DNA of 32,000 bases from Coprobacillaceae bacterium (GTDB lineage: Bacteria > Bacillota_I > Bacilli_A > Erysipelotrichales > Coprobacillaceae), in contig OY776328.1 in assembly GCA_963675515.1 (NCBI GenBank), positions 630,001 through 662,000 of the forward strand, in the 5' to 3' direction. Of this stretch, positions 12,784 through 17,243 are shown piece by piece. The stretch's first letter is position 1. Every line of letters begins with the position of its first letter. The notes below the pieces were generated by a model. That model made no database searches. It saw nothing but the letters and a program-made list of their open reading frames with translations, and was not told where the DNA came from. Made by a program: the position numbers and the translations under genes.

Positions 12784-12820
12784 CCGTAGCTGACCCCCAT
12801 CAGTTGCGGTTTTGTTTTTC
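12784..12820 (+). terminator. Rho-independent terminator
   Basis: CCGTAGCTGA (12784-12793) pairs with TCAGTTGCGG (12800-12809) with two G-U pairs, followed by TTTTGTTTTT. Confidence 0.55.
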
Positions 12821-12875
12821 CTGAATATTTCAATGATCTGATTGGCGAGTTGTAATAGGTGGTCTTGGAAATATG

Positions 12876-12919
12876 AAAAGACATCAATTTCGGGGTTTGA
12901 CCAAATTCGATGTCTTTTC
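12876..12919. terminator. Long hairpin between convergent genes (probable terminator for merR)
   Basis: AAAAGACATC (12876-12885) pairs perfectly with GATGTCTTTT (12910-12919). The helix is extended by AATTT/AAATT. Confidence 0.5.
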
Positions 12920-12944
12920 ATTAATTGTGGAAAATAGGTGGGAT

Positions 12945-13343
12945 TTAGTTGTTGGTGTTGATCAGGTTGCTCTCGTATTCTATTTCGCCGCTTAGGACTC
13001 TGTCGTAAAAATCCTGCTTGTTGTCGATATAATCGATTGATTCGGTGATGTCCTGAAGTTGGACGAGCAACAATTTTTTGGTGGCTTCAAGCATTACTTT
13101 TCTTTCTGGGATTGAATCCTGGCCTTCAAGACAGTATTCCATGTAAAGTTTCATATCCTTGAGGCTCATGCCGCATTTACGCAAACACTGCAACCCTTTC
13201 AGCCAGGCTACATTGTTATCATCAAAATTGCGGTAGTTGTTCTTGTCCCTTTTGACAAAGGGAACCAGCCCTTCCTTGCAGTAAAATTTTAAAGTTTCAT
13301 AACTTATTCCGGTCTGATCACAGACTTGTTTCATTGTGTACAT
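12945..13343 (-). CDS. MerR-family transcriptional regulator
   Basis: MYTMKQVCDQTGISYETLKFYCKEGLVPFVKRDKNNYRNFDDNNVAWLKGLQCLRKCGMSLKDMK is the MerR wHTH plus coiled coil. GGAGGA RBS 6 nt before the ATG at 13343. Confidence 0.88.
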   Translation of the reverse strand: MYTMKQVCDQTGISYETLKFYCKEGLVPFVKRDKNNYRNFDDNNVAWLKGLQCLRKCGMSLKDMKLYMEYCLEGQDSIPERKVMLEATKKLLLVQLQDITESIDYIDNKQDFYDRVLSGEIEYESNLINTNN

Positions 13344-13384
13344 TTTTTTCCTCCATATTACTTCATTTTTTTGACAAAAAGATA

Positions 13385-13415
13385 TTGACCGGTAGTTGCT
13401 ACCGGGATCTATAAT
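13385..13415 (+). promoter_or_regulatory. MerR-type promoter/operator, copy 2, divergent from merR
   Basis: TTGACC (13385-13390), 19-bp spacer, TATAAT (13410-13415). Perfect dyad CCGGTAG-TTG-CTACCGG (13389-13405). Confidence 0.65.
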
Positions 13416-13578
13416 TATATTGTAAATCAATATGTTAAAAAATACAAGGAGCTAACTATATTTAAATCAAGTGTTTTTTGATAATTAGCTGAATTTATTG
13501 TTAGATTTTTGAAAAGTGAATTTGTGTACACTGAAAACAACCACACAGTGGCCTTGGAATTTATTTTACAGTTGTAAA

Positions 13579-14748
13579 TTATTTGAGTTCCGATTCGTCA
13601 AACGTGATGTTTTCAGATAACAGTTTATAAATTACTCTTATTAGTTTTCTAATCGAATGTCCTTGAGCGCAGCGATGTGATTTACCTTGAGAACGTTTTA
13701 GGTTATAATAACTATTGAAAGTGGAGTTGTGGGTGCATACTGGAAGAATGCATTGGTAAAGTGTCTTTCTCAAATAACGTGAACCACGTTTTGACAAAGC
13801 AGTTTGTGGGGCGTTGTATTCTCCGGATTGATATGTTCCAGGATCAACACCTGCAAAACCGATAACTTTAGCTGGGGAGCTAAAATTGTCGAGATCCCCA
13901 ATTTCACTTAATATTGACATTCCTGAGTATATACCAATGCCAGGGATAGTAAAGATAGGAGAATTTAGTGCGATGGCTAGTTCTTCTATTTTTTTATCCA
14001 CTATTTCCAAGTGCTGCTCAGATAAATCAAGGGATTCAATAAGCATTTTGATTTCCATGGTAATTATTTCGTTGTTCTCGCCGATTGATTGTTTAGCTGC
14101 TTCGCGAATTGCCAAGGCATCAACCTTCACAGTTCTACCTTTTCCTTGTTGCCGCAAGACATTTTTAAGATGAGCAAGATTGGCATTGGCTAGATTGTAT
14201 GAGTTCCCAAACTCTCTTAAAATAGCCATGTAAGCCCGAGAATACTTGGTTTTGAACCAACTGTTTATTTCAGGAATTACGGTATCAATGCACTTTTGAA
14301 GTCTGTTTTTAAGCTGGTTGATATCTTCAGTAAGTGTTGCGTGATACCGGGTAAGTTCTTTGGCTTGTTTCAATGCCAACTTGCGTTTTGTAACCTTGGT
14401 GTAGTTCTTGTCGAACAGCACAGAGCAGATCAGGAAAGTATCTTTCTTATCGTTTTTGGTCTTCCTGATTTTTCCACGACGCTTGGCATCAGTTGTCAAA
14501 GGATTTATCATCCCGACTTCGTAGCTGTTTGATACTAGAAAATTCACGATATTGTCACCGTAGTGACCTGTCGCCTCTAGTCCGACAATATGCCTTGAAG
14601 AATTGAATTTTCTTGTGTTTTTAAGAAATAAGTCAAATCCATTACGGCTATTGGTGAAGAAAAAAGGTTCGACCAACACTTCGCCATTTGAGTCAACAAC
14701 GCAGGCACAGTGTTTGAATTTACCTACGTCAATACCGATGTAATACAT
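13579..14748 (-). CDS. IS110-family transposase/recombinase
   Basis: 389 aa from MYYIGIDVGKFKHCACVVD (RuvC-like DEDD N-domain) to the C-terminal ...SKRGSRYLRKTLYQC...RCAQGHSIRKLIRVIY domain. AAAGGA RBS. The upstream extension in the track (to 14832) precedes the RBS. Confidence 0.9.
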   Translation of the reverse strand: MYYIGIDVGKFKHCACVVDSNGEVLVEPFFFTNSRNGFDLFLKNTRKFNSSRHIVGLEATGHYGDNIVNFLVSNSYEVGMINPLTTDAKRRGKIRKTKNDKKDTFLICSVLFDKNYTKVTKRKLALKQAKELTRYHATLTEDINQLKNRLQKCIDTVIPEINSWFKTKYSRAYMAILREFGNSYNLANANLAHLKNVLRQQGKGRTVKVDALAIREAAKQSIGENNEIITMEIKMLIESLDLSEQHLEIVDKKIEELAIALNSPIFTIPGIGIYSGMSILSEIGDLDNFSSPAKVIGFAGVDPGTYQSGEYNAPQTALSKRGSRYLRKTLYQCILPVCTHNSTFNSYYNLKRSQGKSHRCAQGHSIRKLIRVIYKLLSENITFDESELK

Positions 14749-14964
14749 GATAACACGTCCTTTCGTAATAGGTGAGATGTGATATATCCACATACAAGGT
14801 ATCAAAGATCCTGGTGCAAAATACAAGTTCAAAGACTTATCTAACTAATTTCAATTCAGATACGAAGATGTGGCAATTTCCTCCTCGAGGTAGTCAAGCT
14901 ACAGGAATAAAACATCAAAGTACACATTCACAATTCAATTCTATAACAAAAATAAAAGAAAGGA

Positions 14965-14972
14965 AAATGTAT
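14965..14972. repeat. IS256 target-site duplication, left copy (AAATGTAT)
   Basis: Identical 8-mer at 16340-16347, directly flanking the inverted repeats. Confidence 0.85.
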
Positions 14973-16339
14973 GATAGTGTAAAATATTTTGTGTAAATAG
15001 GATTTCAACTTTTAAGTAGAAAAAAGGGTGCAACCCTTGTAAAATTAGTTCGACGAAAACAATTTACGAGAGGATTACACCCATGAACTATTTTACAACA
15101 ACTTTACTTAGAAGTCTAATATCAAATGATAATAATCTGCCAGCTTTTGAGCAAGTAGTCTCAGAACTTTTCCGGAGCGAATTGGAGAATGCCATCAACG
15201 ATATTTTGAAGTCCGAACTTACCGTTTTTCTTGATTATGAGAAATATGACCGATCTGAGAATTCGAATTCAAGAAATGGCTATTACAACCGCGATTACAA
15301 CACTAAATATGGTGTGTTGAACCTGCGCATACCACGTGACCGTCAAGGGGACTTTGATTCACCGCTGGTCCCTAAATATCAGCGAAACGATCTAGCTACC
15401 ACCAACACTGTCATCGATCTATTTAATTCAGGGATGACCAACAGCGACATTGTAAAAACTGTTGAATCAATCTACGGCAAGAAATACTCCAGATAGACAG
15501 TTTCCAATATTACTAAGGAAATAGTTGCCCATGTTGAAGCCTTTAAAAATCGCCCGTTAAACAAGCAATACGCAGTTGTTTATACCGACGCTACAGTTAT
15601 TCCTTTGCGGCGCGATACCGTGTCTAAAGAGGCGGTTCATATCGCTATAGGAGTGACTCTAGAGGGAACAAAGGAAATACTAGGATATTCAATTGCGCCA
15701 ACCGAATCCGCAACAACATGGCGGGAACTGTTTGAAGAGTTCAAAACACGCGGTTTGGAAGCGGTTGCGTTATTCTGTACTGACGGGCTAACCGGTGTTG
15801 AGAACGCCATTGAAGACACTTTTCCGATGGCCAAAATCCAACGTTGCCTGGTGCATGTTTCAAGAAACATTACAGCCAAAGCAAGAGTGAAAGACCGTAG
15901 TGAGATTGCACAGGATTTTAAGCGAGTTTACAATTGCGAAACTGAAAAAGCGGCGAGTGAAGAGCTTAAGGAGTTCATCACCAAATGGGGGCAAAAATAC
16001 CCAAAAGTGGCAAAATCACTTGAAGAGAATTCAAATCTATTCACTTTCTATTTGTTCCCTGAATCGGTACGCAAGAGCATATATACAACAAACCTGATCG
16101 AAGGTTTCAATAAACAGCTCAAGCGGAAAATCAAGGCTAAAGAACAATTCCCAAATGAGGAAGCTGTGGAGAAATACATCGTTTCGCAATTTGAACAATA
16201 TAACCAAAAATTCATGAACCATACCCATAAGGGATTCAAAGGAATATCTTACGAACGTTGGTTCCTGCTAGAAGAAGAATAACCAAGATGATCAGTAAGA
16301 ACTAATTTTACAAATTTACACAAAAATATTGACACTACC
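14973..16339 (+). mobile_element. IS256-family insertion sequence, 1367 bp
   Basis: IRL GATAGTGTAAAATATTTTGTGTAAAT (14973-14998) against the reverse complement of IRR (16314-16339), GGTAGTGTCAATATTTTTGTGTAAAT, gives 21/26 matches. 8-bp direct repeats flank the element, and it carries an IS256-type transposase. Confidence 0.9.
15083..16282 (+). pseudogene. IS256-family transposase interrupted by an in-frame TAG
   Basis: ORFs 15083-15496 and 15605-16282 are in the same frame. ...SIYGKKYSR*TVSNITKEIVAHVEAFKNRPL... reads through a single TAG at 15494-15496. Confidence 0.85.
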
Positions 16340-16347
16340 AAATGTAT
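16340..16347. repeat. IS256 target-site duplication, right copy (AAATGTAT)
   Basis: Identical to 14965-14972. Confidence 0.85.
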
Positions 16348-16370
16348 ATCATAAATTGACTACTAGATAA

Positions 16371-17243
<873 letters not shown>

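What the first reader, a model, noticed from the sequence alone, without database searches (positions are those of the whole stretch)
13439..14972. IS110-family element whose non-coding flanks carry guide-like copies of its own boundary sequence (bridge/seek-RNA candidate)
IS110/IS1111 DEDD recombinases were shown in 2024 to be directed by an element-encoded structured RNA (bridge or seek RNA). That RNA is transcribed from a non-coding end, and its loops carry short guides matching the element ends and the target flanks. Here the recombinase gene (13579-14748, minus strand) has at least 224 nt of non-coding 5' flank (14749-14972, truncated or bounded by IS256) and about 130 nt of 3' flank. The repeats below are read in the sense of the recombinase. 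CTTGTATTTT at 14827->14818, 70-79 nt upstream of the ATG, is repeated exactly at 13448->13439, just beyond the 3' flank. CCTTGTAT at 14799->14792 matches 13449->13442. The similarity extends imperfectly for about 35-45 nt (TAGTTAG ... CTTGTATTTT in both). A same-sense internal copy of the last bases of the right end is what a left-donor guide looks like in the published bridge-RNA architecture. Alternatively, the two 10-mers are a direct repeat delimiting a 1379-bp element. A weaker imperfect inverted repeat, GTGAATTTGTGTAC (13516-13529) with GTACACATTCAC (14920-14931), could be subterminal IRs of the IS1111 kind. I could not fold the RNA or fix the ends by eye.
Basis: partly seen in the sequence, partly recalled or inferred. 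Interest (0 to 1): 0.7.

Follow-up and report, generated by a model that had tools for sequence, protein, structure and literature searches.

The report
IS110 element with its bridge RNA
This is an ordinary member of the IS110 family of jumping genes that carries the family's known guide ("bridge") RNA upstream of its recombinase. The 10-base repeat that drew attention is host DNA next to the element, not one of its guides.

Summary
The repeats are real, and the bridge-RNA idea is right in general but wrong in detail.

**The element.** The ORF 13579-14748 (-) is a DEDD/Ser IS110 recombinase. Two empty sites in related genomes and about 80 relatives' junctions fix the ends. The left end starts at 16387 and the right end stops at 13452, each next to a CT core. 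An IS256-like element (14973-16339, 8-bp duplication) sits inside the left end.

**The RNA.** The 5' non-coding region is conserved in 114 relatives. It forms two stem-loops with internal loops, and all four helices show compensatory changes.

**The guides.**
- Left target guide AUUCCU matches the left flank plus core.
- Right target guide CGAGGAG pairs with CTCCTTG (core plus right flank).
- Left donor guide UAGUUAG matches the right-end terminus.
- Right donor guide ACCAG pairs with CTGGT.
- Across 82-83 distinct insertions the target guides covary with the flanks (z = 13.5 and 8.8).

**The 10-mer.** CTTGTATTTT at 13448-13439 is host 5'-UTR DNA, present in the empty sites. Its internal twin is a conserved part of the donor-binding loop. 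The match looks coincidental.

**Other points.** The clade inserts into Shine-Dalgarno sequences, as IS900 does.

**Verdict.** New member of a known kind, of modest interest.

The parts
16388..16389 (-). Left copy of the CT core dinucleotide. The left target flank (LT, ...ATAAAAATTC) lies at 16390-16399 and runs into the start codon of the AKR gene on the + strand.
   Evidence: Empty sites L133 and L134 read AAGG-AG-GAATTTTTATG across the junction. About 80 relatives show ...C|CT|GGTATAT at this junction.
16340..16387 (-). Left end (LE), part 1: the right-donor sequence GGTATAT... and a long terminal hairpin (16387->16344). It includes the -10 half (TATATT, 16385->16380) of the predicted circle-junction promoter. 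The last 8 nt (16347->16340) are one copy of the IS256 target duplication.
   Evidence: Homology to the LE starts of relatives. Coordinates.
14973..16339 (+). IS256-family element inserted into the IS110 left end. It is not part of the IS110 element proper. It has imperfect terminal inverted repeats and an 8-bp duplication AAATGTAT (14965-14972 and 16340-16347). Its transposase (15083-16282) carries an in-frame TAG at 15497-15499.
   Evidence: Pfam Transposase_mut on both ORF pieces. Inverted repeat I1. Duplication. Single-frame tblastn and the stop codon.
14749..14964 (-). Left end (LE), part 2: the conserved non-coding region that carries the bridge RNA body, followed by the RBS GAAAGGA (14764->14758).
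   Evidence: nhmmer E = 4.4e-50 in the window, and hits in 114 related loci directly upstream of the recombinase gene. Alignment A2.
14938..14943 (-). Conserved -10-like box TAGAAT (TAnAAT in relatives), just upstream of the bridge-RNA body. Candidate internal promoter.
   Evidence: Positionally conserved in alignment A2. Its function is inferred only.
14920..14938 (-). LE arm of the conserved inverted repeat (TTGAATTGTGAATGTGTAC). It overlaps the 5' strand (AUGUG, 14927->14923) of the basal stem of the target-binding loop.
   Evidence: helix 1; pair 30-85 is UA in 45 sequences and CG in 11.
14903..14912 (-). Left target guide (LTG) UUUUAUUCCU. Its 3' six bases AUUCCU equal the left flank plus core (ATTC+CT, 16393->16388).
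   Evidence: table. Family-wide LTG-LT covariation: 4.45 matches observed against 3.52 permuted, z = 8.8, 82 pairs.
14890..14902 (-). Distal hairpin of the target-binding loop, GUAG-CUUGA-CUAC.
   Evidence: RNAalifold. Helix 2 is 99.6% paired with compensatory changes: UA in 55 sequences, AU in 3, CG in 1.
14881..14887 (-). Right target guide (RTG) CGAGGAG. It pairs with core plus right flank CTCCTTG (13451->13445) through 6 Watson-Crick pairs and 1 G-T pair.
   Evidence: table. RTG-RT covariation: 4.40 against 2.62 permuted, z = 13.5, 83 pairs. Per-position match is 0.84-0.87 at the first three RT positions against about 0.43 permuted.
14839..14848 (-). Left donor guide (LDG) UUAGUUAGAU. UAGUUAG equals the right-end terminus TAGTTAG (13458->13452). 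The first core base is not matched (A in the guide, C in the DNA).
   Evidence: The position after AGTT covaries in some relatives (G with G, C with C).
14825..14838 (-). Distal hairpin of the donor-binding loop, AAGU-CUUUGA-ACUU.
   Evidence: Helix 4 is 96.9% paired. Pair 121-153 is GC in 49 sequences and AU in 10. Pair 124-150 is UA in 45 and CG in 14.
14809..14824 (-). 3' side of the donor-binding loop, GUAUUUUGCACCAGGA. The right donor guide (RDG) ACCAG (14815->14811) pairs with core plus RD, CTGGT. The following GA (14810->14809) is complementary to the last two left-flank bases TC, which is handshake-like.
   Evidence: Handshake rule from PMC11208158.
14799..14864 (-). Span enclosed by the basal stem of the donor-binding loop: GUAUC(U)GAA (14863->14855) pairs with UUUGAUAC (14806->14799).
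   Evidence: Helix 3 has compensatory pairs. Pair 94-192 is AU in 33 sequences and GC in 21. Pair 98-189 is CG in 30 and UA in 23.
13579..14748 (-). IS110-family DEDD/Ser recombinase gene, 389 aa, full length.
   Evidence: Pfam. Related to IS621 (8wt6), E = 5e-17. E58, D100, D103 and S308 are invariant and D7 is at least 90% conserved across 34 homologues.
13534..13553 (-). Terminator-like hairpin plus T-run after the recombinase stop codon.
   Evidence: Relatives have a hairpin of different sequence plus TTGTTTT at the same place.
13509..13529 (+). RE arm of the conserved inverted repeat (TTGAAAAGTGAATTTGTGTAC on the + strand).
   Evidence: own arms score 25.1, against 14.7 shuffled and 21.6 +/- 0.4 permuted among loci.
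13452..13578 (-). Right end (RE, 127 nt). It ends in ...TTGATT (the -35 half of the junction promoter, 13470->13465) followed by TAAATATAGTTAG. The left-donor sequence ends at 13452.
13450..13451 (-). Right copy of the CT core.
   Evidence: Empty sites. Family junctions.
13437..13449 (-). Right target flank (RT) CCTTGTATTTTTT. This is host DNA, the antisense of the AKR 5' UTR and Shine-Dalgarno region.
   Evidence: AAAATACAAGGAGG is present in the uninterrupted loci L133 and L134.

Best explanation
The region is one integrated copy of an IS110-group insertion sequence. It is 1,561 bp plus a CT core on each side.

**Layout (shown).** In the recombinase's sense it runs from 16387 to 13452. Its left end has later been split by a 1,367-bp IS256-like element.

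**Bridge RNA (structure and guide matches shown; RNA itself inferred).** The left end encodes a bridge RNA of the published type, made of two stem-loops that each carry an internal loop.
- The first loop reads the target. Its 5' side (AUUCCU) has the same sense as the left flank plus core. Its 3' side (CGAGGAG) is complementary to core plus right flank.
- The second loop reads the joined element ends. UAGUUAG has the same sense as the right-end terminus, and ACCAG is complementary to CT plus the first bases of the left end.

**How it works (inferred by homology with IS621).**
- The DEDD/Ser recombinase is expected to bind this RNA.
- It would bring the circle junction TAGTTAG-CT-GGTAT together with a target ATTC-CT-CCTTG.
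- It would then exchange strands at CT.

**Target (shown).** Here the target was the reverse complement of the Shine-Dalgarno sequence of an aldo/keto reductase gene. The whole clade prefers such sites.

**The 10-mer (coincidence inferred).** It is a chance resemblance between that host 5' UTR and a conserved, non-programmable part of the donor-binding loop.

**Current activity (inferred).** The IS256 insertion separates the junction-promoter half and the 5' hairpin from the RNA body. This copy is probably impaired, although its ends, guides and recombinase gene are intact.
For: **Recombinase.**
- Pfam PF01548 and PF02371.
- Homology to the IS621 and ISCro4 structures.
- E58, D100, D103 and S308 are invariant and D7 is at least 90% conserved in 34 homologues.

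**Ends.**
- Multi-copy relative P0006.
- About 80 junctions reading C|CT|GGTATAT... and ...TATAGTTAG|CT.
- Two empty sites that equal the reconstructed pre-insertion sequence exactly across the junction.

**RNA.**
- The 5' region is found by nhmmer in 114 loci, always directly upstream of the gene.
- The proposed four-helix structure is 81.5% paired against 32-50% for slid controls. Its covariation score is 0.243 against 0.094 or less, and 93 cells are changed on both sides against 29 or fewer.
- The variable stretches of the alignment coincide with the two sides of the target loop.

**Guides.**
- RTG and RT: z = 13.5, 83 distinct pairs.
- LTG and LT: z = 8.8, 82 pairs.
- The window's own guides are listed.
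- The base after the RDG is G wherever the last left-flank base is C, and A where it is T. This agrees with the handshake rule.

**Junction promoter.** TTGATT-N17-TATATT forms on joining the right and left ends (sequence). This is conserved in relatives and is a known family trait.

**Target preference.** 70% of 66 left flanks start an open frame 4-17 nt from the core, against 18% at control positions.
Against: - No RNA or activity data exist.
- The single-sequence fold is no better than shuffles (z = +1.81). RNAalifold alone found only the two distal hairpins. The basal stems are my own proposal, and helices 1 and 3 are only 75% and 67% paired.
- No Rfam family matches.
- The LDG never matches the first core base in clades with a CT core.
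- The base after the RTG is complementary to the cognate target rather than to the donor. This is the reverse of the IS621 handshake rule.
- The LTG match in the window is only 6 of 10 bases.
- Some metagenome contigs are chimeric across the repeat. That adds noise to the guide-flank pairs.
Confidence: 0.9

Rival explanations
1. One reading: CTTGTATTTT is the terminal sequence of the right end, and its internal copy is the left-donor guide.
For: An exact 10-mer occurs twice in 32 kb. The internal copy does lie in the donor-binding loop.
Against: - The external copy is host DNA, present in two empty sites.
- All relatives end at TAGTTAG|CT whatever follows.
- The internal sequence is conserved while the flanks differ.
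- Matches of 10 nt or more occur in 3 of 78 own pairs against 1.7% of cross pairs, and at unrelated positions.
Confidence: 0.02
2. The two 10-mers are direct repeats (a target duplication) that bound a 1,379-bp element.
For: Same orientation and exact identity.
Against: - One copy lies inside the conserved bridge-RNA region, 70-79 nt upstream of the start codon. Such an element would lack its promoter and its target loop.
- The empty sites put the junctions at 13450-13452 and 16387-16389.
- IS110 elements duplicate only the 2-bp core.
Confidence: 0.01
3. The match between the right flank and the donor-binding loop is functional. Extra same-sense similarity lets the loop pair with the displaced bottom strand of the right flank, and this helped select this particular site.
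For: - The match is rarer than typical: 1.7% of cross pairs, and 1 of 77 other natural flanks against the window's own RNA.
- A second internal 8-mer, CCTTGTAT, also matches.
Against: - There is no enrichment of such matches across 78 insertions.
- There is no common register in relatives.
- The published mechanism has no such contact.
- The region is T-rich and of low complexity.
Confidence: 0.05
4. The conserved 5' region is only a promoter and leader (5' UTR) that regulates recombinase expression. It is not a guide RNA.
For: It contains a -10-like box and the RBS. The single-sequence fold is weak. There is no Rfam hit.
Against: - The loop sequences covary with the flanking host DNA across 82-83 independent insertions. 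A leader would not do this.
- Compensatory changes occur in four helices.
- The recombinase is homologous to recombinases proven to be RNA-guided.
Confidence: 0.03

Closest known systems
IS621 and the IS110-group bridge-RNA recombinases (Durrant et al. 2024, PMC11208160; Hiraizumi et al. 2024, PMC11208158)
   Same: - DEDD RuvC-like domain plus a Ser-containing Tnp domain.
- Left end longer than the right end, with the RNA encoded in the left end.
- Two internal-loop stem-loops. The same-sense guide is on the 5' side and the antisense guide on the 3' side, and both overlap a CT core.
- An effective target of about 11 bp.
- ATA...TAT flanking the donor.
- A promoter reconstituted across the RE-LE junction.
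- A handshake-type base after the RDG.
   Different: - The protein is only distantly related (E = 5e-17).
- The left end is longer (264 nt), with an extra conserved stretch and a -10-like box between the terminal hairpin and the target loop.
- The LDG does not match the first core base.
- The base after the RTG pairs with the cognate target.
- It targets Shine-Dalgarno sequences rather than REP elements.
- It has a co-evolving inverted repeat of about 20 nt between the start of the RNA and the right end.
IS900 and IS901 (IS110 family, Mycobacterium)
   Same: Oriented insertion at translation-initiation signals upstream of genes. This is known from Doran et al. 1997 and Inglis et al. 2003, as cited in PMC2942039.
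   Different: - A different phylum, and no close sequence relation was tested.
- Here the crossover is inside the Shine-Dalgarno sequence itself.
- There is no long antisense (hed-like) ORF: the longest + strand ORF inside the element is 95 aa.
CazIS110-1 of Caloranaerobacter azorensis (bioRxiv 10.1101/2025.10.25.684509)
   Same: An IS110 element from Firmicutes with a bridge RNA of the same two-loop architecture. The reported top-strand-only transfer fits the asymmetric junction cores seen in distant relatives here.
   Different: No sequence comparison was possible. No RNA species have been measured for the present clade.
IS1111-group elements and their seekRNA (Siddiquee et al. 2024, PMC11187229)
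   Same: Same recombinase superfamily and the same principle of an element-encoded guide RNA. Cargo inserted about 50 bp from an end is tolerated there, which is comparable to the IS256 position here.
   Different: In IS1111 the RNA lies downstream of the gene and long subterminal inverted repeats sit next to the termini. Here the RNA is upstream and the inverted repeat lies 57-100 nt inside the ends.

Membership tests
IS110 family, IS110 group (bridge-RNA recombinase elements) | Recombinase with an N-terminal DEDD (RuvC-like) domain and a C-terminal Tnp domain carrying the catalytic Ser | tested here: met
   PF01548 at 1.3e-37 and PF02371 at 2.8e-22. Aligns to IS621 (8wt6) over both domains. 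E58, D100, D103 and S308 are invariant and D7 is at least 90% conserved in 34 homologues.
IS110 family, IS110 group (bridge-RNA recombinase elements) | Site-specific insertion without terminal inverted repeats. Only a 2-bp core is repeated at both junctions. | tested here: met
   Empty sites L133 and L134 against the window: AAGG-AG-GAAT, with AG (CT) on both sides of the element. Same in about 80 relatives.
IS110 family, IS110 group (bridge-RNA recombinase elements) | Long non-coding left end upstream of the gene, longer than the right end | tested here: met
   Left end 264 nt once the IS256 element and one duplication copy are removed. Right end 127 nt.
IS110 family, IS110 group (bridge-RNA recombinase elements) | Left-end RNA with two stem-loops, each with an internal loop, supported by covariation | tested here: met
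   Four helices, each with compensatory pairs. 81.5% paired against 32-50% for slid controls. The basal stems were proposed by hand, and RNAalifold found only the distal hairpins.
IS110 family, IS110 group (bridge-RNA recombinase elements) | Target-loop guides: 5' side same sense as LT plus core, 3' side complementary to core plus RT, covarying with targets | tested here: met
   Window: AUUCCU against ATTCCT, and CGAGGAG against CTCCTTG. Family: z = 8.8 and z = 13.5.
IS110 family, IS110 group (bridge-RNA recombinase elements) | Donor-loop guides matching LD plus core and core plus RD | tested here: inconclusive
   UAGUUAG equals TAGTTAG, and ACCAG is complementary to CTGGT. However, the first core base is mismatched in the LDG. 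The donor ends are almost invariant, so covariation is limited to a few loci.
IS110 family, IS110 group (bridge-RNA recombinase elements) | Promoter reconstituted across the RE-LE circle junction | tested here: met
   At sequence level only: TTGATT (13470->13465), 17 nt, then TATATT (16385->16380) on joining the ends. The same spacing holds in relatives. Activity is not testable here.
IS110 family, IS110 group (bridge-RNA recombinase elements) | The RNA is expressed, bound by the recombinase and required for recombination | not testable with these tools
   No expression or biochemical data.
IS1111 group (seekRNA downstream, long subterminal inverted repeats) | Guide RNA encoded in a long right end, with 7-17-bp inverted repeats next to the termini | tested here: not met
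   The conserved structured region is upstream of the gene. The right end is short. The inverted repeat lies 57-100 nt inside the ends.
Rfam RNA families | Match to a curated covariance model | tested here: not met
   There was no hit within 14749-14972; the only nearby ones were chance-level and lie mostly in the IS256 end (E >= 2.1, far below gathering scores).
IS256 family (the inserted element, 14973-16339) | Mutator-type DDE transposase, terminal inverted repeats, 8-bp target duplication | tested here: met
   PF00872 on both ORF pieces. 27-nt inverted repeats, 81% complementary. AAATGTAT duplicated. The transposase has an in-frame stop.

The most novel reading that the evidence does not exclude
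Besides a canonical bridge RNA, this gut-Erysipelotrichales IS110 clade carries a co-evolving inverted repeat of about 20 nt. One arm is the first bases of the bridge-RNA unit, which overlaps the basal stem of its target loop. The other arm lies just past the recombinase terminator in the right end. This could be an undescribed control layer. Possibilities are paired binding sites that bring the two ends together, or RNA-RNA pairing that masks the target loop on read-through transcripts. It would sit in a lineage whose guides are naturally set to Shine-Dalgarno sequences and whose donor and handshake pairing departs from the IS621 rules.
Probability: 0.2. Interest if true: 0.55.

Novelty: new member of a known kind. 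Interest (0 to 1): 0.35.

Why it matters
**What it adds.**
- It is a clean, fully dissected natural example of a bridge-RNA element. The ends are proven by empty sites, all four guides are assigned, and guide-target covariation holds over about 80 insertions.
- It comes from a gut Firmicutes lineage that has not been studied experimentally.
- It gives an RNA-guide explanation for the long-known habit of some IS110-family elements of landing on ribosome-binding sites. The target loop spells the Shine-Dalgarno sequence.
- It supplies a set of natural guide variants, and some deviations from IS621 rules, that could inform engineering.

**What it does not do.** It does not change what is known about how these elements work.

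Tried and rejected
- **Rfam scan of 12800-15400 at E up to 10.** Only chance-level hits, none inside the left-end RNA region 14749-14972.
- **Single-sequence folding.** Uninformative, z = +1.81.
- **RNAalifold on 59 sequences.** Gave only the two distal hairpins. An all-against-all helix search was noisy in this AU-rich RNA. I therefore proposed the basal stems by hand and tested them. An alternative pairing, GUAC (cols 31-34) with GUAU (94-98), was rejected because it crosses helix 1 and competes with the better-supported basal stem of the donor loop.
- **Database look-ups that found nothing.** The plasmid megablast found nothing. Exact-protein look-ups for the recombinase, the AKR protein and P0121 also found nothing.
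- **The 10-mer as a guide or as a direct repeat.** Rejected.
- **An IS900-style antisense hed ORF.** None found; the longest + strand ORF inside the element is 95 aa.
- **An outward promoter in the left end (TTGACT-17-TAATAT, 16356-16384) re-expressing the AKR gene.** Not adopted. The match is only 9 of 12. The transcript would start at or beyond the remaining AGGA. The -10 is weaker in other clades.
- **An antisense promoter at the RE arm of the inverted repeat (TTGATA-18-TAGATT).** Not conserved in the largest clade.
Full report
**Observation**

- CTTGTATTTT occurs exactly twice in the window, at 13439-13448 and 14818-14827, both on the minus strand. The expected count is 0.18, and no shuffle of 100 gave two.
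- CCTTGTAT (14799->14792 and 13449->13442), the shared TAGTTAG and the inverted repeat (13516-13529 with 14920-14931) are all visible in the sequence.
- The ORF 13579-14748 (-) is an IS110-family recombinase, with PF01548 at 1.3e-37 and PF02371 at 2.8e-22.
- It is distantly related to the structurally solved IS621 and ISCro4 enzymes (E = 5e-17).
- The catalytic residues E58, D100, D103 and S308 are invariant, and D7 is at least 90% conserved, among 34 homologues.

**Where the element really ends**

Relatives at 44-85% protein identity come from Erysipelotrichales and Coprobacillaceae genomes and gut metagenomes.
- One relative, P0006, occurs in several contexts. Its copies diverge upstream of ...C|CT|GGTATATT and downstream of ...TATAGTTAG|CT.
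- The same junctions recur in about 80 distinct loci.
- In the window the right end therefore stops at g13452, followed by the core C13451 T13450.
- The stretch upstream of 14972 is not flank but an IS256-family element at 14973-16339. It has 27-nt imperfect inverted repeats, an 8-bp duplication AAATGTAT at 14965-14972 and 16340-16347, and Mutator-type transposase pieces.
- Beyond it lies the missing start of the IS110 left end, at 16387->16340: GGTATATTATAAATGACTTATCTAGTAGTCAATTTATGATATACATTT. It is preceded by the core C16389 T16388.

Two related genomes settle the matter directly.
- Their aldo/keto reductase (AKR) is 95-96% identical to the window's.
- They carry the MerR-AKR intergenic region uninterrupted.
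- That region equals the window's two flanks joined through a single AG...AAAAATACAAGG-AG-GAATTTTTATGGAATATG.

So the IS110 element is 1,561 bp: left end 264, gene 1,170, right end 127. A CT core sits on each side.

The external 10-mer (AAAATACAAG on the + strand) is pre-existing host 5'-UTR DNA.

**The bridge RNA**

- The region between the left-end hairpin and the start codon is recognisable by a DNA profile in 114 loci, always directly upstream of the gene. In the window the E-value is 4.4e-50.
- In an alignment of 59 non-redundant sequences, conservation is high except in two short stretches flanking an invariant hairpin.
- RNAalifold recovers that hairpin and a second one, both with compensatory changes.
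- I added two basal stems and tested the four-helix model:

| Measure | Model | Partners slid by 1-3 columns |
|---|---|---|
| Cells paired | 81.5% | 32-50% |
| Covariation score | 0.243 | 0.094 or less |
| Cells changed on both sides | 93 | 29 or fewer |

- Each helix has compensatory pairs. Examples are UA in 45 sequences against CG in 11, AU in 33 against GC in 21, CG in 30 against UA in 23, GC in 49 against AU in 10, and UA in 45 against CG in 14.
- This gives two stem-loops each carrying a large internal loop, which is the published bridge-RNA architecture.
- Folding the window sequence alone is uninformative, and no Rfam family matches.

**The guides**

The published rules say that the left guides have the sense of the top strand and the right guides are complementary to it. 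All guides include the core.

| Guide | RNA sequence (window coordinates) | DNA partner | Match |
|---|---|---|---|
| Left target guide (LTG) | UUUUAUUCCU (14912->14903) | Left flank plus core, AAAAATTCCT | Last six bases |
| Right target guide (RTG) | CGAGGAG (14887->14881) | Core plus right flank, CTCCTTG (13451->13445) | Six Watson-Crick pairs and one G-T pair |
| Left donor guide (LDG) | UUAGUUAGAU (14848->14839) | Right-end terminus TAGTTAG plus core | UAGUUAG and the final U (core T) match; the first core base is mismatched |
| Right donor guide (RDG) | ACCAG (14815->14811) | CT plus GGT | Fully complementary |

- The next two bases, GA, are complementary to the last two left-flank bases (TC) and not to the donor (AG). 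This is what the handshake model requires for the donor loop.
- Across distinct insertions, the seven non-core RTG positions match their own right flank 4.40 times, against 2.62 after permutation (z = 13.5, 83 pairs).
- The per-position match is 0.84-0.87 at the first three flank positions, against about 0.43 permuted.
- The LTG gives 4.45 against 3.52 (z = 8.8, 82 pairs).
- This covariation with host DNA is the strongest evidence that the RNA guides target choice.
- The donor ends are nearly invariant. A few loci show matched changes after AGTT.

**What the 10-mer is**

- The internal copy (14827->14818) is the last three bases of the distal hairpin of the donor loop, plus the first seven bases of its 3' side.
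- That sequence is conserved throughout the family whatever the flank.
- The external copy is host DNA.
- Same-sense matches of 10 nt or more between a bridge-RNA region and a natural right flank occur in 1.7% of mismatched pairs. They occur in 3 of 78 own pairs, at unrelated positions.
- I conclude it is a coincidence, helped by T-rich sequence. It is neither a guide nor a delimiting direct repeat.

**Target preference**

- The target ATTC-CT-CCTTG is the reverse complement of the AKR gene's Shine-Dalgarno sequence (AAGGAGGAAT, 8 nt before the ATG).
- In the family, 70% of 66 left flanks begin an open frame 4-17 nt from the core, against 18% at control positions.
- Insertion at translation-initiation signals is already known for IS900 and IS901 (Doran 1997 and Inglis 2003, cited in PMC2942039).
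- In the window, the insertion separates the AKR gene from a MerR-type promoter: TTGACC, a 19-nt spacer with a dyad, then TATAAT, at 13385-13415 on the + strand.

**Other anatomy**

- Joining the right and left ends gives TTGATT-N17-TATATT, the family's junction promoter.
- A conserved TAnAAT box lies just upstream of the RNA body.
- A terminator-like hairpin follows the gene.
It extends to about 20 nt and co-evolves. Own-arm alignment scores 25.1, against 14.7 for shuffled sequence and 21.6 +/- 0.4 when arms are permuted among loci.
- Its sequence switches by clade: GTAC with GTAC, or GGATTTGT with ACAAATCC.
- Its arms lie about 100 nt and about 57 nt inside the ends, so it is not an IS1111-type subterminal repeat. 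Its function is unknown.

**State of this copy**

- The gene is full length, and the guides and both ends are intact.
- The IS256-like insertion lies 48 nt into the left end. It cuts the junction-promoter half and the terminal hairpin off from the RNA body. The insertion carries its own terminator-like site.
- Cargo at a comparable position is tolerated in ISEc11.
- Mobility is therefore uncertain. Expression would depend on the unproven internal promoter.

**Verdict**

This is a well-supported new member of a known kind.

The deviations from IS621 are worth a note but do not make this a new kind of system. They are the mismatched core base in the LDG, the cognate-pairing base after the RTG, and the internal inverted repeat.

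Noticed in passing
window 14973-16339: An IS256-family element is inserted 48 nt into the IS110 left end, with an 8-bp duplication AAATGTAT. Its transposase reading frame (15083-16282) is interrupted by a single in-frame TAG at 15497-15499, so this copy is probably a pseudogene.
   Followed up: partly
window 13385-13415 (+): A MerR-type promoter for the AKR gene: TTGACC, then a 19-nt spacer containing the dyad CCGGTAGTTGCTACCGG, then TATAAT. It is divergent from the merR-like gene at 12945-13343 (-). The IS110 plus IS256 insertion (2.9 kb) now separates it from the AKR start codon at 16398.
   Followed up: partly
window 14920-14938 and 13509-13529: An inverted repeat of about 20 nt links the first bases of the bridge-RNA unit with a site just past the recombinase terminator. 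It is conserved and co-evolving in all clades examined. Its function is unknown.
   Followed up: partly
L007-L020, L056-L059, L062 (distant relatives): In the clade whose donor guides read AT, the left junction core is TT in most loci while the right junction core is always AT. This is as expected if junctions are inherited from the exchanged top strands only, which fits the top-strand transfer reported for CazIS110-1.
   Followed up: no
window 14839-14848; 71 related loci: The left donor guide ends in GAU while the donor reads GCT in every clade with a CT core. The first core base is never matched by this guide. The base after the RTG (G) is complementary to the cognate target rather than to the donor, unlike IS621.
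   Followed up: partly
related loci, left end between the terminal hairpin and the -10-like box (alignment): Most clades have a second GC-rich hairpin there, often followed by a T-run (terminator-like) and containing a TTGAtA -35-like hexamer. The window's clade lacks it. A CTCCTTTC / TTCCTTTC motif upstream of it is conserved in all clades.
   Followed up: no
L100:2305-2414: A second, weak match to the bridge-RNA profile (E = 2.6e-5) lies downstream of the recombinase gene in this metagenome locus. It may be a partial or solo copy.
   Followed up: no
L041-L050: Metagenome contigs carrying the same element combine the same left flank with different right flanks, and the reverse. These are assembly chimeras across a repeated IS, so left-right flank pairs from such contigs should not be trusted.
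   Followed up: partly
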